DNA of 44,711 bases from assembly GCA_964438495.1 (NCBI GenBank), contig CAYTKX010000001.1, forward strand, positions 1 through 44,711, in the 5' to 3' direction. The notes beneath the pieces are model-generated. The model ran no database searches and had not been told where the DNA came from. It worked only from the letters and a program-made list of their open reading frames with translations. Position 1 is the stretch's first letter, and each line of letters opens with the position of its first letter. The DNA is from an uncultured Staphylococcaceae bacterium. GTDB lineage: Bacteria; Bacillota_I; Bacilli_A; RFN20; CAG-826. The position numbers and the translations under genes are program-made. Positions 4,559-38,443 of the stretch are shown here, piece after piece.

Positions 4559-4564
4559 ATGTAG

Positions 4565-4573
4565 ATTATAGCA
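4565..4573 (-). promoter_or_regulatory. Extended -10 (TGCTATAAT) 6 nt upstream of the CPBP ATG; possible leaderless transcript
   Basis: The rc of 4565-4573 is TGCTATAAT. Six nt (ctacat) follow, then ATG 4558. No SD. Confidence 0.45.
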
Positions 4574-4615
4574 AACTAAATATTACTTATATAGTAAAGC
4601 GTTTTTCTTACTTCT

Positions 4616-4624
4616 TGATACAAT
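4616..4624 (+). promoter_or_regulatory. Extended -10 (TGATACAAT) 6 nt upstream of the YigZ-family ATG; possible leaderless transcript
   Basis: TGATACAAT at 4616-4624, then taattt, then ATG 4631. No SD. Confidence 0.45.
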
Positions 4625-4630
4625 TAATTT

Positions 4631-5978: not shown

Positions 5979-5988
5979 GAGGCAGAAC

Positions 5989-8690: not shown

Positions 8691-8739
8691 ATAATTATTT
8701 ATTTCCCATACAATTAGTGCCTTTGAACGGCTCTATTTT

Positions 8740-8748
8740 TGGTATAAT
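8740..8748 (+). promoter_or_regulatory. Extended -10 (TGGTATAAT) 7 nt upstream of the addB/rexB ATG; possible leaderless transcript
   Basis: Perfect TGnTATAAT at 8740-8748, then taaaaag, then ATG 8756. No SD. Confidence 0.45.
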
Positions 8749-8755
8749 TAAAAAG

Positions 8756-18444: not shown

Positions 18445-18950
18445 TGCTTCATATAGTGTTATATGAACCTGAGATGCCTGCCAATGTCGGCAATATTATG
18501 CGCACTGCGGTTGCTTTAAACGCAACGCTCCATATTATTGGTCCGACTCCTTTTAATTTTGAAGATAAAAACTTAAAACGGGCCGGCTTAGATTATATTG
18601 GTGATCTTAAGCTATTACTTTATGATAATTATGATCATTTCAATAACAAACATCATAATAAAAAAATAATCTACATATCGCGTTACGGAAAGAAGAACTA
18701 CACTACTTTTGATTATGGGCGCTTTGATGAAGAGATATATATAATGTTTGGCAATGAATCGCACGGCATTCCCTTATCAATATTAAAGGAACATAAAGAA
18801 AACTTAGTGCGCATTCCAATGGTAGCGAATGCTCGTAGTTTAAACTTAGCTAATGCCGTCGCTATCGTTAGTTACGAAGTAATGCGGCAACAAGACTTTT
18901 ACGGGTTAGCGAGTGTAGAAATGATTAAAGGGGATAACTTTTTAGATTAA
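18444..18950 (+). CDS. trmL: tRNA 2'-O-methyltransferase TrmL (SpoU/TrmH family)
   Basis: LYEPEMPANVGNIMRT, FGNESHGIP, and RIPM..NARSLNLANAVAIVSYE. The ~165-aa size fits the TrmL/CspR subgroup. Confidence 0.85.
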   Translation: MLHIVLYEPEMPANVGNIMRTAVALNATLHIIGPTPFNFEDKNLKRAGLDYIGDLKLLLYDNYDHFNNKHHNKKIIYISRYGKKNYTTFDYGRFDEEIYIMFGNESHGIPLSILKEHKENLVRIPMVANARSLNLANAVAIVSYEVMRQQDFYGLASVEMIKGDNFLD

Positions 18951-20315: not shown

Positions 20316-20321
20316 GTTTTT

Positions 20322-20327
20322 ATTCTA
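20322..20327 (-). promoter_or_regulatory. Candidate -10 (TAGAAT) 6 nt upstream of the NFACT-gene ATG; possible leaderless transcript
   Basis: The rc of 20322-20327 is TAGAAT, followed by aaaaac, then ATG 20315. No SD. Confidence 0.35.
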
Positions 20328-20335
20328 CATCAAGT

Positions 20336-20364
20336 TTGTTATTTATTGATAAATAATATACAAT
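20336..20364 (+). promoter_or_regulatory. Candidate sigma-70 promoter for the gmk-priA operon
   Basis: TTGTTA (20336-20341), a 17-nt spacer, then TACAAT (20359-20364). An SD-like AAAAAGGTAGG precedes ATG 20393. Confidence 0.4.
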
Positions 20365-20392
20365 TTAAGAAGTAAAAAGGTAGGTTTTGTGT

Positions 20393-20968
20393 ATGAAAAA
20401 AGGAATTATTGTTTTAATTAGTGGCCCCTCTGGCGTCGGTAAAGGAACGATTTTAAAGGAGCTTATTGCGAATAAGGATTTGAATTTAACCTTTAGCATT
20501 TCGATGACGACAAGGGCAAAAAGAGAAAAAGAAGTTCATGGCGAACATTATTTTTTCGTTAGTCAGGAAGAATTTGCCGCTAATTTAAAGCGTGACAACT
20601 TTTTAGAACATGCCACTTTTGTTGGCAATAGTTACGGAACCCCGAAAGATTATGTATTTAGTCTATTAAACGAAGGCAAAAATGTCTTAATCGAAATTGA
20701 GGTAAAAGGCGCAAAAACACTTATCTCAAAAGTTGATCCCGAAGACATTATTTCTTTCTATATTATGCCGCCTTCAGTTGATGCCTTAATCCACCGCTTA
20801 AAGCATCGCGGAACGGAAGATGACGCTACTATTATGCGCCGAGCCGAACAATTCAAAGAAGAAATTAAATATAAAGATCAATACGATTATGCTGTCATTA
20901 ATGATGACCTAGAAACATGTATTAAAGAGGTTACGGCCCTTATTGAAGCACGGATTAATAAAAAATAG
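20393..20968 (+). CDS. gmk: Guanylate kinase
   Basis: SGPSGVGKGT P-loop, S.TTR..R..E..G..Y.F, and ~190 aa. I set the start at ATG 20393 (MKKGIIVL). Confidence 0.9.
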   Translation: MKKGIIVLISGPSGVGKGTILKELIANKDLNLTFSISMTTRAKREKEVHGEHYFFVSQEEFAANLKRDNFLEHATFVGNSYGTPKDYVFSLLNEGKNVLIEIEVKGAKTLISKVDPEDIISFYIMPPSVDALIHRLKHRGTEDDATIMRRAEQFKEEIKYKDQYDYAVINDDLETCIKEVTALIEARINKK

Positions 20969-23158
20969 ATGAAAATTGTCGATGTTATAACCCAATATTC
21001 AAAACTTGATCGGCCTTTTACTTATTATTACGATGGTGATGATATTCAAGTAGGAGTGCGCGTTTTAATATGGTTTAACAAGCGACAAATTGTCGGTTAT
21101 GTCGTCCGAGTTAAAGATACAAAAGAAACAATCAGTGAAGCCGGAGAAAGATTAGGGTTTAAACTATCAAAAATAAATAGAACCCTTGATAAATCGCCCT
21201 TATTAACCGAAGAATTAATGAAGTTAAGTCAAGAAATCACTGACTACTATTTAACTTCAAAAATAAGTGTCTTAAATGCGATGCTGCCACCTTCTTTACG
21301 ACCGACAAAATCTTCATTAAACGCTCCCAAGATTGCCACGCAAATAGTCGTGCGACCTAATCCCGAGTTTAATGATTTTGACACTTTAAAGGCAACCGAC
21401 CTAGCGTTATTTAACGAAATAATTGCCCGCGGTTTTATTATTCGCTCTTCGAAAAATAGAGTAAAGATTATGCGTTTATATGAGGCGAACGCTGTTATTT
21501 TAGAAGAACAAGAGAAGTATCGTTTAAAATATGATCATTATCCAATTACAAAACCAAATGCTTTAACGGTTAAACAAGTTGAGGCAATAAGTAAAATAAT
21601 TGCTGATCAGCATCAAACATTTTTGCTTCACGGTATTACGGGAAGCGGAAAAACCGAAGTATATTTAGGGTTAGCCGCTCATTATTTAAAGCTTAAAAAG
21701 AAAGTATTACTCCTCGTCCCTGAAATTTCTTTAACCGGCACAATGCTTGCGACTTTCTATCGCCGTTTTGGGAAACGCATTGCTATTCTCCATAGTGAAT
21801 TAACCCCATCTGAAAAATATGATGAATATCGCCGGATTAGAAAAGGTGAAGTAGAAATTGTTGTCGGAGCACGAAGCGCTGTCTTTGCCCCACTAAACGA
21901 TATTGGGATCATTATTCTTGATGAAGAACATGTCGAAACTTATAAACAAGATGTTGCCCCTTTCTATCACGCGCTTAAAGTTGCGCAAATGCGGGCCGAG
22001 CATTTTAACGCCAAAGTTGTCGTGGGCAGTGCCACACCAAGCCTTGATACGATGGCCCGAGCAAAGCGTGATGTTTATGGGTATTATTTTTTAAGTGAAC
22101 GCATTAACAAAAAACCATTACCAAAGACAGAAATTATTAATATGCTTGATTATAAGAATGTTTTACCGACATCCCCTTATATTTCAAAATCTCTTTATGA
22201 AGCGATGAAAGAAGCATTAAATAATAAGACTCAAATTATTCTCCTTGTTAATCGGCGTGGTTATTCAACCTTTGTTAGTTGCCGGGAATGCGGGACCACA
22301 AAAAGATGTCCAACATGCGGAATTGCCTTAACGTATCATAAAAGTGGTCACGTTATGAAGTGTCATCATTGTGGCATTAATTATGAAGTAAATGCGCCGT
22401 GCGAAAAATGTGGTGGCGTCATGTTTAACTTTGCCGGCTTTGCAACTCAAAAAGCCGAAGAAGATATTCAAAAGCTATTTCCGGAGGCTCGTATCTTACG
22501 GCTTGATAGCGATGTAAGTCGTAAAGATAAAACACCGCAAAAAGTATTAAATAAATTTATGAATTATGAGGCTGATATTTTAATTGGCACACAAATGGTG
22601 GCGAAAGGTCATGACTTCCCGCTTGTTAGTTTAGTCGGGGTTATTGGCACTGACGCCAACCTAGCGTTTCCTTCATTTCGCAGCGGAGAACGTACTTTCC
22701 AACTCATTACCCAAGCAATTGGCCGCTCCGGACGCGAAAAAGTAAAAGGTAAAGCGATTATTCAAACGAATATGCCAGCTCATTACATTATCGAACTAGC
22801 GAAAAAACAAGATTATTTTGCGTTTTATGAAACCGAGATGATGCAGCGAAGATATACGCAAAATCCGCCCTATTACTATGTAATGTCGGTGACACTTAGT
22901 CATCAAGATGAAGCCATCATGCATACGACAATTCAAAGTTTAAAGTATAATCTAACTAGTGCATTACAAAGTGATGCCTTAGTGATTGGTCCAACGACTA
23001 GTTTTATGCCGCAAAGTGGGAAAACTTTTAATGAAACTTTAATTATTAAGTATAAAGATTATGCAAAAATAAAGCCCACACTATTAAAAGTATTACGACC
23101 ATTTAAAGAAGAATCATCATTTTATGTGCAAATAAATGTTGATTCATATGATATTTAG
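20969..23158 (+). CDS. priA: Primosomal protein N' (replication restart helicase PriA)
   Basis: GITGSGKTEVY, ILDEEH, and the Cys-rich zinc module (CRECG...CPTCG...CHHCG...CEKCG). Confidence 0.9.
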   Translation: MKIVDVITQYSKLDRPFTYYYDGDDIQVGVRVLIWFNKRQIVGYVVRVKDTKETISEAGERLGFKLSKINRTLDKSPLLTEELMKLSQEITDYYLTSKISVLNAMLPPSLRPTKSSLNAPKIATQIVVRPNPEFNDFDTLKATDLALFNEIIARGFIIRSSKNRVKIMRLYEANAVILEEQEKYRLKYDHYPITKPNALTVKQVEAISKIIADQHQTFLLHGITGSGKTEVYLGLAAHYLKLKKKVLLLVPEISLTGTMLATFYRRFGKRIAILHSELTPSEKYDEYRRIRKGEVEIVVGARSAVFAPLNDIGIIILDEEHVETYKQDVAPFYHALKVAQMRAEHFNAKVVVGSATPSLDTMARAKRDVYGYYFLSERINKKPLPKTEIINMLDYKNVLPTSPYISKSLYEAMKEALNNKTQIILLVNRRGYSTFVSCRECGTTKRCPTCGIALTYHKSGHVMKCHHCGINYEVNAPCEKCGGVMFNFAGFATQKAEEDIQKLFPEARILRLDSDVSRKDKTPQKVLNKFMNYEADILIGTQMVAKGHDFPLVSLVGVIGTDANLAFPSFRSGERTFQLITQAIGRSGREKVKGKAIIQTNMPAHYIIELAKKQDYFAFYETEMMQRRYTQNPPYYYVMSVTLSHQDEAIMHTTIQSLKYNLTSALQSDALVIGPTTSFMPQSGKTFNETLIIKYKDYAKIKPTLLKVLRPFKEESSFYVQINVDSYDI

Positions 23159-23170
23159 AAAGGGAAAAGT

Positions 23171-23581
23171 ATGGTAGTTATTAAAATTTATTCTCAAGAT
23201 ATGTATGTTGCAAGTGAGGTTAGCATTAATCACGCTGCCGCTGTGGCGAAACTTTTAAAAGTTGAAGTGACCGATATTTTCTTTGTCGGCAGTGAAGGCA
23301 CTTTAGTGGCCGAAGGCGTCGATCAAGTAAGTTGGTTTACGTATTTAGAGGTTTCTTTACCTAAAGCAAAAGAAAATAAACAACAAGAATTAAGCGAATT
23401 TCTCCATAAAATCTTTAGTAATTATGGGGTCCATATTATGATTAAATACGATTACTACGAAGAAAATCATCTCGTTAAAATCTTAAATCCGGAGTTCAAA
23501 GTGTTTAATGAAACGATGGTCGAAGTCTTAACCCATGAAAACTATTATGGTGATGAAGAAGAAGACGAAGACTGGGAGTAA
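23171..23581 (+). CDS. Hypothetical small acidic protein (possibly DUF1904-like)
   Basis: 136-aa ORF with an SD-like GAAAGGGAAAAG upstream and an acidic tail, GDEEEDEDWE. The family assignment is from memory only. Confidence 0.5.
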   Translation: MVVIKIYSQDMYVASEVSINHAAAVAKLLKVEVTDIFFVGSEGTLVAEGVDQVSWFTYLEVSLPKAKENKQQELSEFLHKIFSNYGVHIMIKYDYYEENHLVKILNPEFKVFNETMVEVLTHENYYGDEEEDEDWE

Positions 23582-23643
23582 AATTACAAACGTTCTAATA
23601 TATTAGAAGAAATAAATATAGGGTGGTATACTATACCTAGCAG

Positions 23644-24861
23644 GTGAATATGATTAAATACATTATCGAAACAACAAAAAGCATTATGGAAGGGACTCTT
23701 CCCTATCAAACATTTACAAAAGACTTAGGCGAGAGTGAAAATTTTTCTGATGTTGAAAAGCACGCCGTTCGCACTTTAGTAAATGCGTTATTAAACCGTT
23801 ATTTCCGCTATTACTATTCACTTACTAAAAATGAAGAGACAACTTTAACAACTGAAGAAGTACTTGCTTTAGCGCTCTTTAGTTTTAATAGCGAAAAAAA
23901 TGTCATGAAAATGACGTATGAAGAACTTTTAAGTGCCTTGCCGGCAAATAGCCAAGTTAAGCTTGAAGAAAAGTATCCTTTAACTTCATTTCCAATTCGT
24001 ATTCCGCAAGGGCTTCATCTTGAAAATCTTGCCTTATCTTATGCAACACGCTTTAGCGCCCCTTACTTTTTAATCGAACAATTAATTGTTGATATCGGCA
24101 AGAAAAACATCTTAAAGTTTCTTTCGCAGCGCCCCTTTGAAGCGTGCGGCCTCGTTAATCAAAAATTAATAACGCCGACCGACTTTTTTGCTAAACATAA
24201 AGCATTTGTCCCTGGGGAAAAAGAAGGACACTTCGTTTATAAAGGGAAAGAGTTTTTAAAAAAGACGAAACCTTATATTGATAACGAAATTATATTAACG
24301 ACCCAAAGCATGTTAGATATTGCTGAATTAATTGGCGATTCCGCGCCTTCTAATTTACTATTTGTGCAATATAAAGATACATCTTTAGTGCTCCTTTTAG
24401 CGTTACTTTATCCCGAAATTACAATTCACTTTACCGCTGAAGAGCCAAAATCGCGCTTTATTTTGCAACATTTAGTGCGCAAATTCGACTTAAAAAACTT
24501 AAGTTATGTCAATTCAATTGCCCAAACTTATGATTTTGTCGTTACTTCTTTAGAAGGATCAAATATTAACGGTAATATTAGATATCGTGATTTCTACTTC
24601 CGCCTCCCTCAAGATTTAAATAGCATTACTCTTAAAGCTAAAGAACAACTATTAAGCGTTAAAGACTATGTGAAAGATGAAGGAAATTTAATCTTTTTAA
24701 CTTATACTGCCCTTCGGGCGGAGACACATTACCAAGCGTTAAGCTTTATTCGTGATCATGGTGAATTCAATCTCGAAAAAGAAAAACAATACTTCCATTT
24801 CAACCCCTTTCATGAAACTGTATATTACGCTTTTTTCAAGAAAGGTTTAAATGACAAATAA
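23644..24861 (+). CDS. RsmB/Sun-like protein with degenerate methyltransferase motifs (probable pseudoenzyme)
   Basis: It occupies the rsmB slot between priA and rlmN. Its layout is colinear with RsmB: a NusB-like N-terminus, then a Rossmann-like C-terminus. The SAM and catalytic motifs are all replaced (see finding). The start is GTG 23644 or ATG 23650. Confidence 0.6.
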   Translation: MNMIKYIIETTKSIMEGTLPYQTFTKDLGESENFSDVEKHAVRTLVNALLNRYFRYYYSLTKNEETTLTTEEVLALALFSFNSEKNVMKMTYEELLSALPANSQVKLEEKYPLTSFPIRIPQGLHLENLALSYATRFSAPYFLIEQLIVDIGKKNILKFLSQRPFEACGLVNQKLITPTDFFAKHKAFVPGEKEGHFVYKGKEFLKKTKPYIDNEIILTTQSMLDIAELIGDSAPSNLLFVQYKDTSLVLLLALLYPEITIHFTAEEPKSRFILQHLVRKFDLKNLSYVNSIAQTYDFVVTSLEGSNINGNIRYRDFYFRLPQDLNSITLKAKEQLLSVKDYVKDEGNLIFLTYTALRAETHYQALSFIRDHGEFNLEKEKQYFHFNPFHETVYYAFFKKGLNDK

Positions 24862-25915: not shown

Positions 25916-26651
25916 AGGTACTTTTGCGTCGAAAAGTGATCGTGGGTTAGTTCGCCTCCATAATGAAGACCGGGCGGCGGTGCTTTTAAATCAAAAAGGT
26001 GATTTACTTTTTGTCGTTTGTGACGGCTTAGGTGGTCATAATAAAGGTGATTTTGCCTCAAAACTTGCTATTGACATGTTAATGACGGCCTTTGCTAACA
26101 ATAAAGGCTTTTGGACAAGTAGCAGCATTAAACGCTTTTTAGCCCGTAATATACGCGCAATTAACCGAGTTATTTTCCAAGAAAGTAACAATGACCGCGA
26201 AATGAATAATATGTCTACAACTTTAAACGCTGTCGTGTTAACGAAAAATAAAATGGTGAGTGTTAATATTGGCGATAGTCGTTTTTATTTAATTGATGGC
26301 GAAAAGATTGAACAAATTAGTGAAGATGATACAGTCGTCAGCTATTTAGTGCGCACCAACCAAATAACTGAAGCCGAAGCTTTAGTGCATCCTAAACGCC
26401 ATATCGTCACAAACGCCTTAGGAACCTTACCGACAGTTAACTTTAATTTTAAACGCGTTAAATACCGCGGTGAAAAAATACTTTTATGTACTGATGGGCT
26501 TTACAATATGGTCGGAGAAGATGAAATTGTAAAGATTTTAAATACAAACAAGACAATTGAATCTAAAGTAGACTCTTTAATTGCCCTCGCAAATAATCAC
26601 GGTGGTGCTGATAACATTGGCATTGCCTTATGGGAGCCAGATAATGATTAA
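25899..26651 (+). CDS. prpC: PP2C-family Ser/Thr phosphatase
   Basis: SDRGLVRLHNED, CDGLGGH, and GGADNI. I set the start at GTG 25899, 8 nt after AAAGGAGGA (25882-25890). It overlaps the rlmN stop. Confidence 0.85.
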   Translation: MATAIKGTFASKSDRGLVRLHNEDRAAVLLNQKGDLLFVVCDGLGGHNKGDFASKLAIDMLMTAFANNKGFWTSSSIKRFLARNIRAINRVIFQESNNDREMNNMSTTLNAVVLTKNKMVSVNIGDSRFYLIDGEKIEQISEDDTVVSYLVRTNQITEAEALVHPKRHIVTNALGTLPTVNFNFKRVKYRGEKILLCTDGLYNMVGEDEIVKILNTNKTIESKVDSLIALANNHGGADNIGIALWEPDND

Positions 26652-27531
26652 AGTTGGAGATTTAATTGACAATCGATATCGTATTGTCAGCTTACTTGGT
26701 GAAGGGGGCATGGGTACGGTTTATGAAGCCGTCGATATTATTACCAAACGTAATGTCGCGCTTAAGTTTTTAAAAGCGTCAGTTGCCCAAGATAAAGTAA
26801 ATCTCGCCCGTTTTGAAATAGAAGCCAAAGCGACCGCTACTTTAAATCATCCCAATATTGTCCGTGTTGTCAGTGTTGGTAAATATGAAAATCTCCCCTA
26901 TATGGTTAATGAACTTGTCGTTGGTAATACACTAGAAGAAGAACTCGCTAGTCGTGGTCGTTATACTTTCTTAGAAGCGCTTGATATTATTGAACAACTT
27001 TGTAACGCTGTCGCGCTTGCCCATCAAAATGGGGTCATTCATCGCGATATTAAACCAAGCAATATTTATATTACGAAAGAAGGACTCGTTAAATTAGGAG
27101 ACTTTGGTATTGCCCGTTATAGTGATTCAAAAAGAGTAACGAGTAATACAAGTATTGTCGGTAGCGCACACTATTTAGCGCCGGAAGTTTGTAAAGGAGC
27201 CGAATCAACACCGCGAAGTGACATTTACGCGCTCGGTATTAATTTATTTGAACTTATTACCGGACACGTCCCTTTTGACGGCGAAAGTAATGTCGCTATT
27301 GCCGTAAAGCAAATTAAAGAAAAGTTTCCAAGTCCCCGTAAATACAATAAAAACACTCCAAAAGCCCTTGAACTTATTATTAAAAAATGCTGTAAGAAAA
27401 ATCCGCGTGACCGTTATGAAGACGTTAATGCTTTAAAAGAGGATATTTTAAAACTAAAAGGAAATCAAAAAGCCTTACGCCCGCGGCAATCCATTTGGGT
27501 ACGCTGGTTTGGCTTTGCGACTGAGGATTAA
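26644..27531 (+). CDS. prkC: Hanks-type Ser/Thr protein kinase, catalytic domain only (no TM or PASTA region)
   Basis: GEGGMGTVY, VALK, HRDIKPSN, DFGIA, and APE. I set the start at ATG 26644 (MIKVGDL), overlapping the prpC stop. The protein ends ~25 aa after the kinase domain. Confidence 0.85.
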   Translation: MIKVGDLIDNRYRIVSLLGEGGMGTVYEAVDIITKRNVALKFLKASVAQDKVNLARFEIEAKATATLNHPNIVRVVSVGKYENLPYMVNELVVGNTLEEELASRGRYTFLEALDIIEQLCNAVALAHQNGVIHRDIKPSNIYITKEGLVKLGDFGIARYSDSKRVTSNTSIVGSAHYLAPEVCKGAESTPRSDIYALGINLFELITGHVPFDGESNVAIAVKQIKEKFPSPRKYNKNTPKALELIIKKCCKKNPRDRYEDVNALKEDILKLKGNQKALRPRQSIWVRWFGFATED

Positions 27532-30516: not shown

Positions 30517-30959
30517 AGTTTTAAACTTGGAAATTGTTTTTTTATTTCATCAAGGCTCCAATATTTTTCGACCCGTTCTTTCATCTCTTTATAGATGAGT
30601 CTTTTTGGGTCATGGGCTAAATAACGTTCATCACCCTTACGGGTTACAAAGCGGATGCTTAGTTTTTTATCGCTATATGCTTCATCAATATAGATAATGT
30701 CTTTAAAAGGATAATATAAAGTATTACGGCCCTTATGATGGACAATTTCATGCTTTGTTATTTCGTAATAACTATTCTTATAGCCGATTATTAAATAAAT
30801 TACTGTCGTTACCGTCCAAATAAGAAGCACTAAATAATGATATAAAGTCGGGGGAAAAGTAATGCCGGTAATTAAATAGAAAATAATCGACACTAAAAGA
30901 TAGATCGGTAAATAAATAAGGAGTAGACCTTTAAAACTTGTGTATATTTTTTTATTCAT
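30513..30959 (-). CDS. Hypothetical 2-TM protein with a C-terminal bacterial PH-like (bPH/YdbS-like) domain
   Basis: 148 aa with two N-terminal TM helices, then YYEITKHEIVHHKGRNTLYYPFKDIIYID...LSIRFVTRKG, which resembles membrane-anchored bPH domains. Its ATG overlaps the upstream gene's stop (ATGA). Confidence 0.5.
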   Translation of the reverse strand: MNKKIYTSFKGLLLIYLPIYLLVSIIFYLITGITFPPTLYHYLVLLIWTVTTVIYLIIGYKNSYYEITKHEIVHHKGRNTLYYPFKDIIYIDEAYSDKKLSIRFVTRKGDERYLAHDPKRLIYKEMKERVEKYWSLDEIKKQFPSLKL

Positions 30960-32029
30960 GAATTTTGAATATCGCGACTAAAATCATTAAAGCGACCACT
31001 GAAGGCGCTAATGAATGTGCGAATTCCTCCTTCCAACTTTTTCGCGTCATTTAAGTCATTCGTAAAGTGTTTGCTAATAAGAACACGCACTAACTCATAT
31101 ATTTTAAAATAAAGCGTTAATAAATAGCGATCAAAGTCAATGCCAATGCGTAAATCTTCAGCACTTATTAAATATTCATGAACAAAAAGACTTGCAAAGG
31201 CGTAATGCGGATATAAATCCCCTAAATTAACCTTTTCTAATAGCGTTTTTAATGAATATTCTTCGCCTGGACCAATTAATTCCCCGGCCCAGCCAAAGCG
31301 TTCAGCAATATGCCACGGTAAATTGCCGCGTCCTGCATGCTTCAAAGCTTCTTTACTTTTACTTATTTTATCTTTCGTACTAGCGTTTAATAGTCGCGCA
31401 CGCGTGAGCGCGATAATCCGTCTTTCATTATACTTACCACTAAGGTGGGGGTTCCGTTCTAAAATTAAAAGGTTAGTCGTTGTTTCAAGTAAACTTCGCC
31501 ATATAATAAAAGCATCATTATTAAACTCACGTTCTAAAAGCATAATCCCGCTTATTAATTCATTAAAGAAGCGCTCGGTCATCATATATAAAATATTGGT
31601 CGCTAAATCTTTATCTTTCATGTCGACAGCTTTAAAACGGTGATAACGACGATTAATTAAATTTTCAAACTCCATAATGATTGGATCAATGATTTGGTCA
31701 CGGGTGAAGATGTGGTCAGGATCATTTTTAGCTTCCTCACTTTTAATGACCCCTTTAATTAAGTCGTTAATGTGATCGTTACCTTTAAAGTAAGTTTTTA
31801 AGTATTGCGGGCTACTTGATTTAATTTTATGGTTATGGCGCATGATGACGCGGTTCGCGAAAAGGAAGAAGTCTTCTTTTTTTGCTCCAAACTGTTTGCG
31901 ATATTCGGGAAAGGCATTTTTGATGGCATTCCGAAAGTAGTCAACCTTCTCATCACTATTTGGTGAGATCTGAATATTATCTTTTAAAAGGGCGCGAACT
32001 TGATCGCGAGATAGTTGATAATTAGCCAC
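30956..32029 (-). CDS. Hypothetical helical protein, distant paralog of 14179-15270 (possibly DUF5677-like; unverified)
   Basis: GTG start at 32029, 6 nt after AAGGAGA (rc of 32036-32042). 357 aa. The motif series NDAFIIWRSLLETTTNLLILE ... FGWAGE ... LFVHEY is colinear with the 14179 protein. It is divergent from jetA. Confidence 0.6.
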   Translation of the reverse strand: MANYQLSRDQVRALLKDNIQISPNSDEKVDYFRNAIKNAFPEYRKQFGAKKEDFFLFANRVIMRHNHKIKSSSPQYLKTYFKGNDHINDLIKGVIKSEEAKNDPDHIFTRDQIIDPIIMEFENLINRRYHRFKAVDMKDKDLATNILYMMTERFFNELISGIMLLEREFNNDAFIIWRSLLETTTNLLILERNPHLSGKYNERRIIALTRARLLNASTKDKISKSKEALKHAGRGNLPWHIAERFGWAGELIGPGEEYSLKTLLEKVNLGDLYPHYAFASLFVHEYLISAEDLRIGIDFDRYLLTLYFKIYELVRVLISKHFTNDLNDAKKLEGGIRTFISAFSGRFNDFSRDIQNS

Positions 32030-32135: not shown

Positions 32136-33569
32136 ATGAAGGAGAAATTTTTTTTGAGCCTGTTTACCATTATTCCGAATAACTTTTTTTCAATATTAGC
32201 AAGTAAAAATAAAGAGATTTACGCTGAAGCTCTGCTCCTTTTACATCGCTCGATTGAAGATAACGATTTATTCATTAAAAAGAATGAATTCACTCGTAAT
32301 TTAAAAGAGCGGTTAAGTGAATTATCGCTCACTGTTGATATTGCGGCCGAAGAAGAACTTGAAGAAGACGAAGTCGTCGACCATAGTGATAAGGCTAGTT
32401 TTATTGTGCGTCGGTTAGAAGAATGCGGGTGGATTGATGTTGAAGTTAATCCCGAAAACTTTGAAGAATATATTGCGTTACCAAGTTACAGCATCAATAT
32501 GCTTGCCCTTATTAATAGTTTAGTAAAAGAAAGCACTGCTGAATACGTTAGTCTTGTCCACGCAACATATAGTGAACTTGCGCTTGAAGACGAGATGCGC
32601 GACGAATTTATGTATGCAACTTTAGTGCGTGCTTTTGAAAACACGAAAGCTCTTAACGTGGAACTTATTACCCTGGCCCATAGCATTCGTATTTTCCAAA
32701 ATCGCCTCGGCAAAGTATTTAGCACGAACAATATTTTAAGTGATTATTTTGATCACTATAAAACAAGGGTTAGTGACCGCTATTATCACCCCCTTAAAAC
32801 GTTTGATAGTGTCGCTAAATTTAAGCGGCCAATCTTACAAATCTTACAAAAGTGGCTCTATGACGATGAAATTAGAACCCAACTTGTCACCCAAGCTTTA
32901 ATGTGGAGTCGCCATAAAGATAAAGGAGCCGCTGAAGCCGATATTATTAATAAGATTAACTATATTAGTGATATGTATGAAAGAGTGAATGATACGATTG
33001 CGCAAATCGATCAAAAACATCATGAATACACAAAAGCAAGTGCCACAAAAATCTTATATTTAAATAGTGCTGATAAATCGATTAAAGGTCATCTTGACTT
33101 TATCTTTAAAACATACGCTGAAACCTTTAGTAAAGGAGCAAGTGTTAGCCCTATATTAAATGGCCTTGCTGAATCTTTAAAATTCAATCGCCACGGTTAT
33201 GTTAGTCCTGATAGTATCACCTTACCAATCGTGCGTGAATTAAGACGTGATTCCTTACCCCTTACCTTAACTGACTTTGATGATGTTCGCGATGCTTTAA
33301 TGGAACACTTTTTAGAACAAACGAGCAGTCAATATAGTAATGATGAAATCTTTGACTTTATGGACTTAGCGTTTGGTGATGATAGTGAGGTGCATATTAA
33401 AGATATTCCCTTACCAACATTTGAAGCATTTTTGCTTTTAATCTTAGCGACGATTAAAACAAATGACGAACAATGTTTTTATATCGTTGAAACAGATCCT
33501 GGGAAAGTAAGTAGCCACGGCTACCGCTTACCAAACTTACGCTTTATTAGAAAGGAGCTAGCCCTCTAA
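32136..33569 (+). CDS. jetA: JetA/MksF-like (kleisin-type) subunit of a Wadjet/MksBEF-type SMC complex
   Basis: ~475 aa, first gene of a coupled trio with the size and order of jetA-jetB-jetC. It has an acidic linker (AAEEELEEDEVVD) and a winged-helix-like stretch (FIVRRLEECGWIDVE). The assignment rests mainly on context. The start may be TTG 32154, 9 nt after AAGGAG at 32139-32144, rather than ATG 32136. Confidence 0.6.
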   Translation: MKEKFFLSLFTIIPNNFFSILASKNKEIYAEALLLLHRSIEDNDLFIKKNEFTRNLKERLSELSLTVDIAAEEELEEDEVVDHSDKASFIVRRLEECGWIDVEVNPENFEEYIALPSYSINMLALINSLVKESTAEYVSLVHATYSELALEDEMRDEFMYATLVRAFENTKALNVELITLAHSIRIFQNRLGKVFSTNNILSDYFDHYKTRVSDRYYHPLKTFDSVAKFKRPILQILQKWLYDDEIRTQLVTQALMWSRHKDKGAAEADIINKINYISDMYERVNDTIAQIDQKHHEYTKASATKILYLNSADKSIKGHLDFIFKTYAETFSKGASVSPILNGLAESLKFNRHGYVSPDSITLPIVRELRRDSLPLTLTDFDDVRDALMEHFLEQTSSQYSNDEIFDFMDLAFGDDSEVHIKDIPLPTFEAFLLLILATIKTNDEQCFYIVETDPGKVSSHGYRLPNLRFIRKELAL

Positions 33570-34204
33570 TGTTTGAAGAAACCATTTTAAAAATGACGCG
33601 CGCTGATCAAGAAGCGTTCGCCAAAGCTATTAACCAATTATTATTAACAAGTTTTATCGTTCGTGATGAATTTGATCGCCGCGAGAAAACGATTAAGATT
33701 AACCCAACATACCGGTTTATTGAACGCCATTTTGATTTAATTAACGATTATTTAAGTTATAGCGGATGGCGTGTTGATAAAGATTTAATTTTAGGAGTGT
33801 TTAGCCTCGTCAATGAATATGACCATAATCGTTTACGCTTTGACCGCGAAGTAAGCTTAATTCTTTTTGTCTTACGCTTAATTTATGAAGAAGAGAAAAA
33901 AGAAGGGGGCCACATTGGCGATTCTATTTATTTAACGACCCCCCTTGTTATGAAAGTAATGCATGATCGCGGCATATTAATTCCGAATAAAAAGTTAACC
34001 GGTCGCTTAGTGGGACGGGCGCTTAAAGAAATCGCTAACCACAATATTATTGCTCGTGTTTCGGGAACATATGACGAAGGAAACGTGACGTTCTACCTTT
34101 TACCGTCAATTACCTTTGCCGTTGATAACGATAAAATTGTCGCCATTAGTCAAGCTTTAGAAAAACTAGCGCTCCGAGATAGCGGGGAAGGAAGTGACGC
34201 ATAA
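33569..34204 (+). CDS. jetB: JetB/MksE-like subunit (DUF4194-like)
   Basis: 211 aa. TAATG overlap with jetA. The pattern FAKAINQLLL.SFIV...Y.FIERHFDLINDYL...GW.V..D...GVF.L...RL.F...S.ILFVLRLIY.EE matches my recollection of DUF4194. Confidence 0.65.
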   Translation: MFEETILKMTRADQEAFAKAINQLLLTSFIVRDEFDRREKTIKINPTYRFIERHFDLINDYLSYSGWRVDKDLILGVFSLVNEYDHNRLRFDREVSLILFVLRLIYEEEKKEGGHIGDSIYLTTPLVMKVMHDRGILIPNKKLTGRLVGRALKEIANHNIIARVSGTYDEGNVTFYLLPSITFAVDNDKIVAISQALEKLALRDSGEGSDA

Positions 34205-37200
34205 TGAAACTATTAAAAACCGTCAAAATAATTAACTGGCATTACTTTTGGAATCAAACCTTAAGTATTGAACCAATTGTCTTTTTAACCGGGATGAACG
34301 CCAGTGGGAAAAGTACGATTATCGACGCGATGCAAGTCGTGCTTTTAGGTGATACATCGGGTCGTTATTTTAATAAAGCAGCCGCTGAAAAAAGTAACCG
34401 AACCTTACGCGGATATTTACGCGGTGAATTAGGAGATACGCTTGAAGGGGGATTCCATTATTTACGTAATGGGCGCTTTACAAGTTATATCGTCTTAGAG
34501 TTTTATGATGATGTTAAAGACGAATTCTTTAATATTGGTATTGTCTTTGATGTTTATGAAGATGGTGGCTATGATCATCGTTATTTCTATTTAAACGCGA
34601 AAATGCCGGAAAATGAATTTATTGTCGATAACATTCCGCTTGAATATAAAGCCCTTAATAAATTATTCCAAAGTGAATACGCCGGTAAATATAAATTCTT
34701 TGATACAAACCGGCAATATCAAGACCATCTTAAAAAGGTGCTAGGTAACTTAAAAGATAAGTATTTTAACTTACTTAAAAAAGCGGTTAGTTTCTCGCCG
34801 ATTACCGATATTACAACGTTTATTACCGAATACGTTACTGAATCGCAAAAAAACATCGATATTGGTCCGATGCAAGATAACATCCTCCAATATAAAAAGT
34901 TAGAAGATGAAGCCGCCTTAATGCGTTATAAAGTCGAACGCTTAACCGAAATTAATAAAAACTATCTTGTGTATAAAGAACATAAAGAAAAACAAACGTT
35001 AAGTGAATACGTTTTAGAAAAATCAACATTACAAAATGATTTAAATCGTTTAGAAGCCTTTAATAAACAATATTTAGGCTACGCGAAAAGACTTGGCGAC
35101 ATTGAAAGTGAACTCGCTGATCTTGATATTAACCTCGCCGAACTTAACAAACGGAAAATTAAACTCATTCAAGATAGTTCCACTAATGATACATATCGCA
35201 TTACCGATGAAATTAATGAACATAAAAAAGTCGCTGAAGAAAAGATTAAAAGCTTAAACTTCTTAAATATGCAAGTAAGAAGTGACTTAGAACGTTATGT
35301 CATGACCTTTAATAAAATCGCTAATGATGTTATTACTAGTTTAACGAACCAAGACACCAAACGCTTTAAAAAAGATGGACTCTTTAGTCTTGATGAATTA
35401 TTAGATAGTGCAGAATCAATTATTAAAATTAATAATACAATCACCGAACTTTTAGGGCGTGATATTAATGAATTAGGTGAAGATATCTTAACGAAATGGC
35501 GCACCGCGCAAGCAAGTTTTAAACAAAATCTTGCCGCCTTTACCTTAACGCTTGGCCGCCTCATCACTGATTATGAGGCAAATGAAGCCATCTTAAAACA
35601 ACAAGAAATCGACCTTCGCGGCGGTGGTAAACCTTATGAATATAGTCTCGTCCAAGTGCGGAATGAACTCCAAAACCGTTTAAGTGCGAAATTTGGTCAT
35701 CCAGTTGAAGTCATGATCTTTAGTGACTTAATCGATATTAAAAACCCAAAATGGACGAACGCTATTGAAGGGTATTTAGGCGCACAACGCTTCTATTTAT
35801 TCGTCGAAGGCCAATATTTCCTTGATGCTTATGATATCCTTAAAGGCCTTTTACAAACATATAATTTTTATGGTACAAACTTAGTCGACGTCGATCAAAT
35901 CATCGAACGCCGCTTTAGCGCTAGTAAAAATTCGCTTGCCGAAGAAATCTTAACTGACCACGTTGGCGCTCGCGCTTATGTTGACTTTTTACTTGGGCGT
36001 TTACAAAAATGTAATACGATTCAAGAAGCGCGCAATAGTGGAAACGGTATTACGCCGGAAACGGACTTATATCGTAACTTTACCTTTGGACGCATAAATC
36101 CCCGCAACTACGCTCAAAAGTTTATCGGTCGTAAAGTCGAAGAAGGCGAAGTTAACGCTAAAAAAGCTGAACTAGCTGCCCACGGGGTCCAACTAAATCT
36201 TTATAAAGAATTATTTAATACTTTACGCTACGGGAACGATATCGAAATTGTAAACACAAACGAAATTAGTGCCCTCGGCAGCCAAGTAAAACGCATTCAA
36301 GAATTACCGGCCCTACAGCAAAGTGTGCTCTTTTATGAAGAAGAACTCGGCCGTCACGATTTAACGCTTATTGAAGGTATTCACCGCCGTATTAACTTAG
36401 TCGAAACCGATATTAAAGGTATTGAAGAGCAAAAAAGTTTACTCGCCGAAGAACGGGGAACGATTAATACGAATATGAGCTTACTTAAAAGTGAACGCAT
36501 TCCCGAAACAAAGCAAATCATTAACGAACGGCAAACTAAACTTGATGAAAATTATGATGCCTTCTTCGTTGAAGATGTCGCAGAACCATTTTTCCAAAAC
36601 TTAATTGCCGAAGGAAAGACACCACTAGAAATTAATAGTGAATTCCGTAACGCTTATTCAACGGCCTTATATTTAGCAAACAGTGTCTTTAACCAAGTAA
36701 AAAGATTACGGAAAGAATATGTCGTTGACTATCGCTTAACGTTTGAAACCGAAGTTAGTCATAACGACCAATTCGATAGTGAGTTAAATGATTTACTTGA
36801 AGTTAAATTACCAGAATACGAAATTAAAATTAATGACGCTTATCAAAAAGCGGTCAAACAATTTAAAGATGACTTCATAAGTAAATTACGAAGTGCAATC
36901 GAAACGGTTGAAGATCAAATTGCCGAACTTAATATCGCCTTAAGTACATCAACTTTCGGTGAAGACTCCTATCAATTTACCGTTCGCCCAAGTACCGTCT
37001 ATCGTCCCTATTACGACATGATTAAAGATGATTTACTCTTAGAAGTAACGGATGACGATAGTGAATTCTTTACGAAATACGAAGACGTCTTAAAAGACTT
37101 ATTCGGGCAAATTGTTTTAGCAGGCGACGGTGATAAAAACGCCGCCGTACTTGCAAACGTTGAAAAGTTTACTGATTACCGTAATTACTTAGACTTTGAC

Positions 37201-37578
37201 TTAATTGTTAAAGATAAAGACGGTAATGAACAACGGCTCTCACGCATGCTCATGAAGAAATCAGGGGGCGAAACGCAAACGCCATTTTATATTAGTGTCC
37301 TTGCAAGTTTTGCCTATCTCTACCGCGTCAATGAACCAGGTGAGTTAAGCAATAGTGCCCGCCTTATTATCTTTGACGAAGCGTTCTCGAAGATGGATAG
37401 TGGCCGTATTAAAGAAGCGATTCGCTTATTACGCCGCTTTGGCTTACAAGCAATTATAAGTGCGCCAAGTGATAAAGTAGGCGACATTAGCCCGCTTGTT
37501 GATGAAACACTTGTCGTCTTACGCGGCAAAAACTATAGCCAAGTTCAACTTTTTGCCCGGGAAGAAGATTTAACATAG
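34204..37578 (+). CDS. jetC: JetC/MksB-like SMC-family ATPase
   Basis: 1124 aa. The N-terminal head is IINWHYF...FLTGMNASGKSTIIDAMQVVLLGD (Walker A). The middle ~700 aa is heptad-rich. The C-terminal head has KKSGGETQTPFYISVLASF (signature) and RLIIFDEAFSKMD (Walker B). TAATG overlap with jetB. Confidence 0.8.
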   Translation: MKLLKTVKIINWHYFWNQTLSIEPIVFLTGMNASGKSTIIDAMQVVLLGDTSGRYFNKAAAEKSNRTLRGYLRGELGDTLEGGFHYLRNGRFTSYIVLEFYDDVKDEFFNIGIVFDVYEDGGYDHRYFYLNAKMPENEFIVDNIPLEYKALNKLFQSEYAGKYKFFDTNRQYQDHLKKVLGNLKDKYFNLLKKAVSFSPITDITTFITEYVTESQKNIDIGPMQDNILQYKKLEDEAALMRYKVERLTEINKNYLVYKEHKEKQTLSEYVLEKSTLQNDLNRLEAFNKQYLGYAKRLGDIESELADLDINLAELNKRKIKLIQDSSTNDTYRITDEINEHKKVAEEKIKSLNFLNMQVRSDLERYVMTFNKIANDVITSLTNQDTKRFKKDGLFSLDELLDSAESIIKINNTITELLGRDINELGEDILTKWRTAQASFKQNLAAFTLTLGRLITDYEANEAILKQQEIDLRGGGKPYEYSLVQVRNELQNRLSAKFGHPVEVMIFSDLIDIKNPKWTNAIEGYLGAQRFYLFVEGQYFLDAYDILKGLLQTYNFYGTNLVDVDQIIERRFSASKNSLAEEILTDHVGARAYVDFLLGRLQKCNTIQEARNSGNGITPETDLYRNFTFGRINPRNYAQKFIGRKVEEGEVNAKKAELAAHGVQLNLYKELFNTLRYGNDIEIVNTNEISALGSQVKRIQELPALQQSVLFYEEELGRHDLTLIEGIHRRINLVETDIKGIEEQKSLLAEERGTINTNMSLLKSERIPETKQIINERQTKLDENYDAFFVEDVAEPFFQNLIAEGKTPLEINSEFRNAYSTALYLANSVFNQVKRLRKEYVVDYRLTFETEVSHNDQFDSELNDLLEVKLPEYEIKINDAYQKAVKQFKDDFISKLRSAIETVEDQIAELNIALSTSTFGEDSYQFTVRPSTVYRPYYDMIKDDLLLEVTDDDSEFFTKYEDVLKDLFGQIVLAGDGDKNAAVLANVEKFTDYRNYLDFDLIVKDKDGNEQRLSRMLMKKSGGETQTPFYISVLASFAYLYRVNEPGELSNSARLIIFDEAFSKMDSGRIKEAIRLLRRFGLQAIISAPSDKVGDISPLVDETLVVLRGKNYSQVQLFAREEDLT

Positions 37579-37588
37579 AAAGGAACTT

Positions 37589-38443
37589 ATGAAGCAAACT
37601 TTTGCCGAAACGATTAAACGCGAACATTTAGAACTGCGCAATAAATATCACGTCAGTCTTTTTACCGCCCTTACTTTTTTCGGCCTTATCGGCATGCTTA
37701 TAATTAGTCTATATACTTTTATTCCCCTTAGTCCTTTTTTACAAAGTCTAGTCCTGCCGATCGGGGGAAGTATTCTCTTTTTATACTTACTATTTATCTT
37801 TATTTTTTATCCTTTACGCTTTAATTACTTGCAAAAAGAGCTTTATTTAACGTTTTTTAAAGCGGCACGAAGCGCCGGACTTAAATTAATCCCTAATACA
37901 ATGGGGGTCCAAAACTTTGATTATGACACTTTACTTAAAGAAGCGTCGATTTTTAAAAGTGACTCCCTTTATCAAATCGCTCGTTATGAATACGATAAAC
38001 GCTTAATTCATGTCTTATATTATAAAGAAGGGGAAAACGTGTTTGCGATTATTCATATACCGCAGAAAGAATGTCCTTACTATTTACAAGTAAATAACAA
38101 TAACTTTGCGCCCCCAATTATGTATAAAGGTGAACAAATTGAAAAAGTAGCGTTTGTTTCTGCACATAAATTAAACTATTACGCGCTTAAAGGGCCAACT
38201 AATGTTAAAATATACTTGCGGAGAGAATTAGAAAGTCGCCTTATTGACATATTAAAAATCCGTGACGGTCATTATCAATATGTGGCGACGTACACTGATG
38301 AATTTTTACTCATTGATAAATACTATGAGCGGGCCCCCTTACGCCTTAATGAAAATTACAGTGATGAATACTATATTGAAAGGCTTAATAATTTATTACT
38401 AATACAACAAATATTAAACGTCATGCTTGACCAAAGGAGGTAA
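37589..38443 (+). CDS. Hypothetical membrane protein in the position where jetD is expected (possibly DUF3137-like; unverified)
   Basis: It starts 10 nt after the jetC stop, with GAAAGGA upstream. It has 2-3 N-terminal TM helices (LFTALTFFGLIGMLIISLYTFI; LVLPIGGSILFLYLLFIFIFY), then a ~190-aa soluble domain. I see no Toprim-like E / DxD motifs. Confidence 0.6.
   Translation: MKQTFAETIKREHLELRNKYHVSLFTALTFFGLIGMLIISLYTFIPLSPFLQSLVLPIGGSILFLYLLFIFIFYPLRFNYLQKELYLTFFKAARSAGLKLIPNTMGVQNFDYDTLLKEASIFKSDSLYQIARYEYDKRLIHVLYYKEGENVFAIIHIPQKECPYYLQVNNNNFAPPIMYKGEQIEKVAFVSAHKLNYYALKGPTNVKIYLRRELESRLIDILKIRDGHYQYVATYTDEFLLIDKYYERAPLRLNENYSDEYYIERLNNLLLIQQILNVMLDQRR

What the first reader, a model, noticed from the sequence alone, without database searches (positions are those of the whole stretch)
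32136..37578. jetA-jetB-jetC (Wadjet/MksBEF-type SMC complex) with no JetD nuclease anywhere in the locus
**Seen in the sequence.** Three genes of 477, 211 and 1124 aa are joined by TAATG stop/start overlaps at 33569 and 34204.
- The third is an SMC/MukB-like ATPase, with Walker A GMNASGKST, a long coiled-coil middle, signature SGGETQ and Walker B LIIFDEAF.
- The second looks DUF4194-like.
- The sizes and order are those of jetA-jetB-jetC.

**Established knowledge.** Wadjet was defined as a four-gene jetABCD system in which JetD, a ~400-aa Toprim-type nuclease, is the DNA-cleaving effector. MksBEF condensins without MksG also exist.

**What is unusual here.** No ORF on either strand within 6 kb has the size or E...DxD features of a Toprim protein. 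The jetD slot is filled by a membrane protein, and the flanks carry other uncharacterised genes.

**Inference.** Either this is a nuclease-less MksBEF-like chromosome organiser in a small AT-rich genome, or it is a Wadjet derivative that uses a different, undescribed effector.
Basis: partly seen in the sequence, partly recalled or inferred. Interest (0 to 1): 0.8.

Follow-up and report, generated by a model that had tools for sequence, protein, structure and literature searches.

The report
Nuclease-less JetABC SMC operon, vertically inherited
This is a real, intact JetA-JetB-JetC (Wadjet/MksBEF-type) DNA-motor operon that truly lacks the JetD nuclease, but such nuclease-less versions are already catalogued (including one from this same bacterial lineage), and here it behaves like a stably inherited chromosomal gene set, not a mobile defence island.

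Summary
Three overlapping genes at 32136-37578 are type I JetA, JetB and JetC (PADLOC E = 4e-126, 4e-63 and 0). No JetD exists in the window or in 160 related loci: a 104-sequence JetD HMM run on 2.4 Mb of six-frame translation hit only the two positive controls.

The locus is not a defence island.
- In 69 species-level genomes of uncultured small-genome Bacilli, jetABC sits at one chromosomal site, rpe-thiN-rpmB-orf148-[jetABC]-glgCDA-leuS. These are RFN20-like MAGs (my assignment from MAG names): Onthovivens, CAG-826, 'Tenericutes' ADurb MAGs.
- JetC divergence tracks that of the neighbouring genes (r = 0.91).
- dN/dS is 0.015-0.02, as low as housekeeping genes.
- All ATPase motifs are invariant.
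- Eight syntenic metagenome loci lack jetABC, so it can be lost.

Most likely it is a nuclease-less, MksBEF-like loop-extruding complex acting on the chromosome.

This kind is known. Bürmann et al. (Cell 2025) map 'loss of MksG/JetD across the Wadjet group', and their table lists a contig of this very clade (my L011) as a nuclease-less 'FEB' operon.

One loose end remains: a fast-evolving 2-TM protein occupies the JetD slot in about a third of the loci.

Whether Smc-ScpAB is absent from these genomes could not be tested. Interest is modest.

The parts
32136..33569 (+). jetA (kleisin-like subunit, MksF equivalent). The ORF is 477 aa from ATG 32136. The probable real start is TTG 32154 (471 aa), behind the RBS AAGGAG at 32139-32144.
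   Evidence: Pfam JetA PF18982, E = 1.6e-91. PADLOC JetA1, E = 4.2e-126. Gene callers give 471 aa. The start region was read.
33569..34204 (+). jetB (KITE subunit, MukE/MksE-like, DUF4194), 211 aa. Its start overlaps the jetA stop (TAATG).
   Evidence: Pfam DUF4194, E = 4e-16. PADLOC JetB1, E = 3.8e-63. The overlap was read.
34204..37578 (+). jetC (SMC/MukB-like ABC ATPase with long coiled-coil arms and a hinge), 1124 aa. Its start overlaps the jetB stop (TAATG).
   Evidence: PADLOC JetC1, E = 0, 1087 bits, over 1-1121. Pfam AAA_29 plus SbcC_Walker_B. The only PDB matches are JetC chains 9qxt, 8as8 and 8dk1. 229 of 1124 columns are at least 98% identical in 63 orthologues.
34291..34317 (+). 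JetC Walker A (P-loop), GMNASGKST, aa 30-38.
   Evidence: G30, N32, S34, G35, K36, S37 and T38 are at least 98% conserved in 63 orthologues.
37261..37278 (+). JetC ABC signature motif, SGGETQ, aa 1020-1025.
   Evidence: Every residue of the motif is at least 98% conserved across the clade.
37363..37386 (+). JetC Walker B, LIIFDEAF, aa 1054-1061, followed by the D-loop SKMD.
   Evidence: I1055, F1057, D1058, E1059, A1060, F1061, S1062, K1063, M1064 and D1065 are at least 98% conserved; positions 1054 and 1056 are slightly less conserved.
37589..38443 (+). Gene in the 'JetD slot': 284 aa with a two-helix N-terminal TM hairpin and a soluble region of about 200 aa, of no known family. It lies 10 nt after the jetC stop and 1 nt before the probable glgC start. 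Whether it belongs to the system is tentative.
   Evidence: No Pfam, PADLOC or NCBIfam hit. Only 5 protein clusters exist in 5.8e9 proteins. dN/dS is 0.10. Similar 2-TM proteins occupy the same slot in four sequence groups, linked by profiles. It is absent from about 40 jetABC loci.

Best explanation
The locus encodes a complete, active, nuclease-less Wadjet-group SMC complex: JetA kleisin, JetB KITE dimer and JetC SMC ATPase.

**Shown.** It is an old, vertically inherited resident of the chromosome in a lineage of uncultured, low-GC, small-genome Bacilli. It is under purifying selection as strong as the neighbouring housekeeping genes. No JetD/MksG Toprim nuclease lies near it in any relative.

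**Inferred.** By homology with E. coli JetABC and MukBEF, the complex is most likely a dimer-of-pentamers ATP-driven DNA loop extruder. Without a nuclease it probably acts on the host chromosome, in compaction, arm resolution or segregation. This is what P. aeruginosa MksBEF and MukBEF do, rather than cutting plasmids. It arose from a type I JetABCD ancestor by loss of JetD. It is useful but dispensable, because sister lineages with the same backbone have lost it.
For: **Identity.** The three proteins match type I JetA, JetB and JetC models.

**No JetD.** There is no JetD or JetD remnant in 2.4 Mb of six-frame translation of the window and 160 related loci, while both positive controls were found.

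**Fixed chromosomal position.** The order rpe-thiN-rpmB(L28)-orf148-jetABC-glgC-glgD-glgA-leuS recurs in 69 species-representative genomes. JetC identity across them runs from 37 to 98%.

**No mobile-element signs.**
- No tRNA genes.
- No compositional anomaly.
- No integrase-like Pfam hits in the flanks.

**Vertical co-inheritance.** JetC pairwise distances correlate with GlgC+GlgD+GlgA distances (Pearson 0.91, slope 0.93, 1176 pairs).

**Purifying selection.**
- dN/dS for the window versus L001 is 0.021 (jetA), 0.015 (jetB) and 0.017 (jetC).
- For comparison, leuS is 0.037 and glgC is 0.033.

**Active ATPase.** Walker A, signature, Walker B and D-loop are invariant in 63 full-length orthologues.

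**Operon structure.** No terminator-like site lies between jetA and glgA. The genes are packed with 0-11 nt spacers.

**Precedent.**
- 'Several other Wadjet group members' lack MksG/JetD (PMC7617805).
- Contig JAFLUZ010000005.1, which is my L011 (JetC 56% identical to the window), is listed there as an 'FEB' operon.
Against: - No functional data exist for this clade. A chromosome role is inferred only from inheritance pattern and precedent.
- Eight syntenic metagenome loci lack jetABC. In an NJ tree of GlgCDA they nest inside the jetABC-positive clade. So the complex is dispensable, which is less expected for a sole condensin.
- I could not test whether these genomes also carry Smc-ScpAB, or a JetD elsewhere in the genome.
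- JetABCD systems themselves are thought to extrude on any DNA, so loss of JetD does not by itself prove a chromosomal function.
- The loci were found by JetC similarity, so how widespread jetABC is across the whole order is not established.
Confidence: 0.6

Rival explanations
1. Nuclease-independent or trans-nuclease immunity. JetABC would still sense small circular DNA by total extrusion. It would then neutralise it without JetD, by compaction or silencing (as Smc5/6 does), by sequestration, or by recruiting a nuclease encoded elsewhere in the genome.
For: - The proteins are bona fide type I Wadjet subunits.
- Smc5/6 restricts viral DNA without cleaving it (PMC10586767).
- Only about 23-45 kb per genome was inspected, so an unlinked nuclease cannot be excluded.
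Against: - All characterised Wadjet systems encode JetD in the operon, and JetD is the executing part (PMC10123090 title).
- Defence systems usually show patchy, island-like distribution and faster turnover. Here the position is fixed across 69 species, dN/dS is 0.015-0.02, and JetC co-diverges with the glg genes.
- No Toprim or JetD-like sequence occurs in any of the 160 loci.
Confidence: 0.2
2. A four-gene variant in which the 2-TM protein in the JetD slot is a functional partner of JetABC. It could be a membrane anchor or an alternative effector, retained in some lineages and lost in others.
For: - A 282-342-aa protein with the same architecture (two N-terminal TM helices plus a soluble region of about 200 aa) lies directly after jetC in 21 loci, the window included. 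These fall into four sequence groups, one of which is the basal L087.
- Profiles link group C to L087 (E = 4e-18).
- Profiles link group A to group B (E = 2e-4). This was the best non-self hit among 231 background ORFs.
- (A+B) versus (C+L087) by hhalign gives P = 8e-5 over 268 colinear columns.
- It is under purifying selection (dN/dS 0.10).
- It is separated from jetC by 10 nt.
- It is absent from all 8 jetABC-less syntenic loci.
Against: - About 40 jetABC loci have no gene in the slot, with a 4-143 bp gap to glgC. JetABC therefore works without it.
- It evolves far faster than JetABC: 50% versus 84% identity between the window and L003.
- The link from A/B to C/L087 is weak. The reversed-sequence control gave P = 5e-4.
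- It has no homologues next to other Wadjet systems: only 5 clusters, all in close relatives.
- No nuclease-like or any other domain was detected.
- The AF2 model of the soluble part is unreliable, with pLDDT 30-60.
- 0 of 8 versus about 21 of 64 is not statistically decisive.
Confidence: 0.12
3. A decaying remnant of a JetABCD defence system that lost its nuclease and is no longer functional.
For: JetD is missing, and some sister lineages have lost the whole operon.
Against: - Full-length intact ORFs in more than 60 species.
- dN/dS of 0.015-0.02.
- Invariant catalytic motifs.
Confidence: 0.02

Closest known systems
Nuclease-less Wadjet-group operons ('FEB' operons in Bürmann et al., Cell 2025, PMC7617805, Data S1), including P. 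aeruginosa MksBEF
   Same: - The same three subunits (kleisin, KITE, SMC) of the Wadjet/Mks group, with no MksG/JetD.
- Chromosomal location.
- A member of this very clade (JAFLUZ010000005.1, my L011) is in their table, as are Anaeroplasma bactoclasticum and several 'Tenericutes' and Erysipelotrichaceae MAGs.
   Different: - This particular species and locus is not described in the sources I read.
- The clade-wide fixed position between rpmB and glgC, the housekeeping-level selection, the recurrent loss, and the 2-TM protein in the JetD slot are my observations here, not taken from the literature.
- A chromosome function has been shown for P. aeruginosa MksBEF, not for this clade.
Type I Wadjet JetABCD (E. 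coli GF4-3 JET, P. aeruginosa PA14 JetABCD; PDB 8as8, 8bfn, 8q72, 8dk1)
   Same: - JetA, JetB and JetC match the type I models end to end.
- The only solved structures detectable by sequence are JetC chains.
- Same gene order, with overlapping start and stop codons.
   Different: - There is no JetD, and therefore no Toprim cleavage module.
- It is not in a defence island.
- Identity to E. coli JetC is detectable only over the C-terminal head (E = 1e-10 to 4e-12).
MukBEF of gamma-proteobacteria
   Same: A Wadjet-group SMC complex that lacks the nuclease, is vertically inherited, and acts on the chromosome (PMC7617805).
   Different: - Gene order is mukF-E-B, with MukF, MukE and MukB as families in their own right.
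- Here the only Muk-family match is a weak MukB N-terminal hit at 24 bits (cutoff 23), far below the JetC models at 1087 bits.
- MukBEF is known to have replaced Smc-ScpAB. Whether that is so here is untested.

Membership tests
Wadjet type I defence system (JetABCD) | JetA (DUF5716/PF18982 kleisin-like protein) | tested here: met
   Pfam E = 1.6e-91; PADLOC JetA1 E = 4.2e-126.
Wadjet type I defence system (JetABCD) | JetB (DUF4194, MukE-like KITE) | tested here: met
   Pfam E = 4e-16; PADLOC JetB1 E = 3.8e-63.
Wadjet type I defence system (JetABCD) | JetC (MukB-like SMC ATPase) | tested here: met
   PADLOC JetC1, 1087 bits, full length. PDB matches are JetC only. Catalytic motifs are intact.
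Wadjet type I defence system (JetABCD) | JetD/MksG Toprim nuclease (DUF3322 + DUF2220/PF09983) encoded in the operon | tested here: not met
   A JetD HMM built from 104 sequences was run on six-frame translations of the window and 160 related loci. Only the controls L070 and L071 were hit; the best other E was 0.42. tblastn gave a best E of 1.6. No Pfam JetD domain was found in any scanned ORF.
Wadjet type I defence system (JetABCD) | Restriction of small circular plasmids | not testable with these tools
   Needs transformation or plasmid-stability assays.
Nuclease-less Wadjet-group / MksBEF-like complexes | A kleisin-KITE-SMC operon belonging to the Wadjet/Mks group | tested here: met
Nuclease-less Wadjet-group / MksBEF-like complexes | Absence of MksG/JetD next to the operon, conserved in relatives | tested here: met
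   The published catalogue lists clade member JAFLUZ010000005.1 as 'FEB'.
Nuclease-less Wadjet-group / MksBEF-like complexes | Contribution to chromosome organisation or segregation | not testable with these tools
   Inferred only from vertical inheritance, selection and precedent.
MukBEF | MukF and MukE family proteins, and MukB as the best match for the SMC subunit | tested here: not met
   No MukF or MukE Pfam hit. The MukB N-terminal hit is only 24 bits, against 1087 bits for JetC1.
Smc-ScpAB | Canonical SMC (SMC_N + hinge) with ScpA and ScpB | tested here: not met
   SMC_N scores 20.9 bits, below the cutoff of 40. The partners are JetA and JetB, not ScpA and ScpB.
Lamassu / Rad50-SbcCD | LmuA effector + LmuB, or an SbcD/Mre11 nuclease partner with a zinc hook | tested here: not met
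   Among the PADLOC hits shown for JetC (best 25 of 32), all strong ones are JetC1 models and no Lmu or SbcC model appears. The neighbours have no PADLOC hits.

The most novel reading that the evidence does not exclude
There are two readings, and they could both be true.

1. In this lineage of reduced-genome Bacilli, JetABC is the principal or only condensin, having functionally replaced Smc-ScpAB. That would be a second, independent MukBEF-like takeover by a former defence system.
2. The ancestral operon carried a fast-evolving 2-TM membrane protein in place of JetD. This protein would tether or modulate the SMC motor, making a previously undescribed four-gene Wadjet derivative.

Neither reading is excluded. 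Smc-ScpAB presence could not be checked. The slot protein co-occurs only with jetABC.
Probability: 0.12. Interest if true: 0.7.

Novelty: new member of a known kind. Interest (0 to 1): 0.33.

Why it matters
How SMC-based defence systems turn into chromosome organisers (Wadjet to MksBEF or MukBEF) is an open evolutionary question. This clade offers a clean natural example. A type I JetABC lost its nuclease and settled at one chromosomal site. It has been kept under housekeeping-level selection across dozens of species, and sister lineages that lost it are available for comparison.

As it stands, though, it adds a well-documented member to a known category rather than a new kind of system. It would become important only if it proves to be the sole condensin of these genomes, or if the membrane protein in the JetD slot proves to be a partner.

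Tried and rejected
- **Exact-sequence look-up of JetC.** It is not on record. The source was reached through the slot protein instead.
- **PADLOC scan of all other window ORFs as a pseudo-alignment.** It was inconclusive for JetD. The top-25 family list was filled by kinase and helicase look-alikes (PD-T4-6 for the PknB-like kinase, GajB for AddA). I replaced it with a home-built JetD HMM.
- **AlphaFold2 of the slot protein with a 5-sequence alignment.** The TM hairpin is confident, but the soluble domain has pLDDT 30-60. I ran no fold search, because matches would be meaningless.
- **First pairwise hhalign between slot-protein groups.** The results were weak (P = 0.003-0.025). Pooled profiles and hmmsearch against a background set gave clearer links.
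- **Looking for Smc-ScpAB.**
  - No second SMC-like ORF occurs in any locus.
  - The supplements of two RFN20/Tenericutes genomics papers hold nothing on smc or scpAB.
  - Extending the window upstream gave only a 6.2-kb contig.
- **Lamassu, Rad50/SbcC, MukBEF and Smc-ScpAB assignments.** All rejected on domain scores.
- **Pseudogene or remnant reading.** Rejected on dN/dS and motif conservation.
- **Rfam and tRNA scans of the window.** Nothing was found.
- **Promoter and terminator scan.** Counts were no better than shuffles.
Full report
**1. Observation**

They are joined by TAATG overlaps, which I read directly.

Domain searches leave no doubt about the family.
- Pfam: JetA E = 1.6e-91; DUF4194 E = 4e-16; AAA_29 plus SbcC_Walker_B on the large protein.
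- PADLOC: type I models JetA1 E = 4e-126, JetB1 E = 4e-63, JetC1 E = 0 (1087 bits, end to end).
- By sequence, the only solved structures related to the large protein are JetC chains of E. coli and P. aeruginosa.
- Lamassu, Rad50/SbcC, MukBEF proper and Smc-ScpAB are therefore rejected.

The likely true jetA start is TTG 32154, behind an AAGGAG site. Independent gene callers give 471 aa.

**2. Is JetD really missing?**

Yes, as far as the available sequence goes.
- The ORF after jetC (37589-38443, 284 aa) has two N-terminal TM helices and no hit in Pfam, PADLOC or NCBIfam.
- Pfam scans of nearly every other ORF in the 44.7-kb window show housekeeping genes and no JetD domain. These genes include addAB, priA, rlmN, PP2C, a PknB-like kinase, rsgA, rpe, glgCDA and leuS.
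- I took two annotated JetD proteins from Bacillales plasmids whose JetC resembles the window's, and expanded them to 107 homologues.
- From 104 of these sequences I built an HMM. I ran it with all filters off on every stop-to-stop fragment in six frames of the window plus 160 related loci (2.4 Mb).
- Only the two control loci were hit (E = 1e-113 and 1e-172). The best other E was 0.42. tblastn agreed.

**3. Context in relatives**

A scan of one genome per species (GTDB representatives) with JetC returned 69 loci, with JetC identity from 98% down to 37%. All are uncultured Bacilli MAGs. Their labels include Bacilli, Mollicutes, 'Tenericutes' ADurb.Bin087/239, Erysipelotrichales, Candidatus Onthovivens, Candidatus Scatoplasma and Coprobacillus sp. 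CAG:826.

Mapping the window's genes onto them shows one conserved chromosomal arrangement. The order is rpe, thiN-like orf218, rpmB (ribosomal protein L28), orf148, jetA-jetB-jetC, glgC-glgD-glgA, leuS.

- There are no tRNA genes or Rfam families in the window, and no compositional break.
- JetC pairwise distances track those of GlgC+GlgD+GlgA (Pearson 0.91, slope 0.93, 1176 pairs).
- Between the window and its 98%-identical relative L001 (dS about 0.55), dN/dS is 0.021, 0.015 and 0.017 for jetA, jetB and jetC. For leuS it is 0.037 and for glgC 0.033.
- In 63 full-length JetC orthologues, Walker A, the signature motif, Walker B and the D-loop are invariant. 229 of 1124 columns are at least 98% identical, and the heads and hinge are more conserved than the arms.

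This is the signature of a vertically inherited, functional chromosomal gene set. It is neither a mobile defence island nor a decaying remnant.

**4. Is it indispensable?**

No. To avoid ascertainment by JetC, I scanned metagenome contigs with GlgC. Among the contigs that carry the same backbone:
- three have jetABC (L083, L086, L087);
- eight go straight from rpmB-orf148 to glgC, with a gap of only 200-370 bp; in L090 the gap holds unrelated folD and dCMP-deaminase-type genes.

In an NJ tree of GlgCDA, the jetABC-less lineages (L093+L096 and L090+L097) sit inside the syntenic clade, and the jetABC-positive L087 is basal. This suggests ancestral presence and one or two losses. The tree is crude, so I treat that as indicative only.

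**5. The flanking genes**

It fails its own test for most candidates.
- The DUF5677 gene upstream is present in only 9 loci.
- orf148, a small 2-TM protein, is retained where jetABC is absent. It belongs to the backbone.
- About 40 loci have no gene at all between jetC and glgC, with a gap of 4-143 bp.

The slot protein is the one loose end.
- A 282-342-aa ORF with the same architecture (two N-terminal TM helices, then about 200 soluble residues) follows jetC in four sequence groups:
  - A: the window's subclade;
  - B: L008, L054, L059;
  - C: L010, L011, L013, L017, L051, L052, L064;
  - the basal L087.
- BLAST does not connect the groups, but profiles do.
  - C to L087: E = 4e-18.
  - A to B: E = 2e-4, ranking above 231 background ORFs.
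  - (A+B) versus (C+L087): hhalign P = 8e-5 over 268 colinear columns, against P = 5e-4 over 91 columns for a reversed control.
- It is under purifying selection, though weaker than jetABC (dN/dS 0.10).
- It has only five protein clusters in a 5.8-billion-protein database, all from close relatives.
- It gave an unreliable AF2 model for the soluble part.

It is probably one old, very fast-evolving family that has sat behind jetC since early in the clade and was lost in most lineages. Whether it works with JetABC is unknown. JetABC clearly persists without it.

**6. Mechanism**

Shown:
- a complete JetA/JetB/JetC set with intact ATPase chemistry;
- tightly packed genes, co-directional with glgCDA, with no terminator-like site between them;
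- conservation and strong selection.

Inferred from the E. coli JET and MukBEF structures and biochemistry (PMC10586767; PMC7617805; bioRxiv 2023.11.03.565488):
- the complex is an ATP-driven DNA loop extruder;
- with no JetD to dock on the JetC 'larynx' it cannot cleave DNA;
- its most likely substrate is therefore the host chromosome, as for P. aeruginosa MksBEF and MukBEF.

I put 0.6 on this. The rivals are:
- nuclease-independent or trans-nuclease immunity, 0.2;
- a functional four-gene variant with the membrane protein, 0.12;
- a dead remnant, 0.02.

**7. Comparison with what is known**

Nuclease-less Wadjet-group operons are an established category.
[quoted passage not shown] - That table lists Erysipelotrichales bacterium GCA_022508535.1, contig JAFLUZ010000005.1, mksB 20292-23696, as an 'FEB' operon. 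This is my locus L011, a member of the window's clade.
- The same table also lists Anaeroplasma bactoclasticum and several 'Tenericutes' and Erysipelotrichaceae MAGs as FEB.
- I also found a JetD-less JetABC on an Agathobacter rectalis 252-kb replicon.

The locus fails membership of the four-gene Wadjet defence system, because JetD was tested and not met. It meets the sequence-level criteria of the nuclease-less Wadjet/MksBEF-like group.

**8. Verdict**

The novelty class is a new member of a known kind.

What this analysis adds:
- the clade-wide fixed position between rpmB and glgC;
- housekeeping-level selection;
- documented loss in sister lineages;
- the recurrent 2-TM protein in the JetD slot.

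The key open question is whether these genomes have Smc-ScpAB at all. If they do not, this would be a second MukBEF-like replacement event and much more interesting.

Noticed in passing
window 37589-38443; also L008 13441-14307, L011 13421-14335, L087 8897-9925: A fast-evolving ORFan family occupies the JetD slot in about a third of the jetABC loci. It has two N-terminal TM helices and a soluble region of about 200 aa, and matches no known family. Four sequence groups are linked only by profile comparisons. It is never seen in the 8 jetABC-less syntenic loci.
   Followed up: partly
window 14179-15270 (+) and 30956-32029 (-): There are two DUF5677 paralogues in one window. One lies directly after the addB/addA (PD-(D/E)XK nuclease plus UvrD helicase) pair at 8717-14189. 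The other is divergent from jetA. The jetA-adjacent copy occurs in only 9 related loci. The function of DUF5677 is unknown.
   Followed up: partly
L090, L092-L094, L096, L097, L106, L136 (metagenome contigs): Sister lineages have the identical backbone rpe-thiN-rpmB-orf148-glgCDA-leuS but no jetABC. In most, the gap where the operon would sit is only 200-370 bp. These are natural deletion (or pre-insertion) comparators.
   Followed up: partly
window 664-2505 (-): A 613-aa protein with no Pfam hit. It is a strong match to the NCBIfam 'MAG1210 family protein' model (E = 9e-197).
   Followed up: no
window 23644-24861 (+): A 405-aa ORF at the position where rsmB normally sits (after priA and before rlmN). 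It has no Pfam hit and only weak C-terminal RsmB matches (E about 1e-4). It is possibly a highly diverged or degenerate RsmB.
   Followed up: no
window 26581-27531 (+) and 18942-20315 (-): Shortened versions of usually larger proteins, consistent with a reduced genome. The PknB-type Ser/Thr kinase is only 316 aa, with no domains detected beyond the kinase domain. The NFACT (RqcH/FbpA-like) protein is 457 aa.
   Followed up: no
L072 (Agathobacter rectalis NZ_CP143948.1, locus 2424-8016): A JetA-JetB-JetC operon on a 252-kb replicon of a Lachnospiraceae gut bacterium is followed by a gamma carbonic anhydrase and an MFS transporter, with no JetD. This looks like another, apparently independent, nuclease-less case.
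   Followed up: no
L044 and L055 (jetC end 13375, leuS start about 13616): Two species have lost glgCDA, so jetC is followed directly by leuS. The jetABC-glg linkage is therefore synteny, not functional coupling.
   Followed up: no
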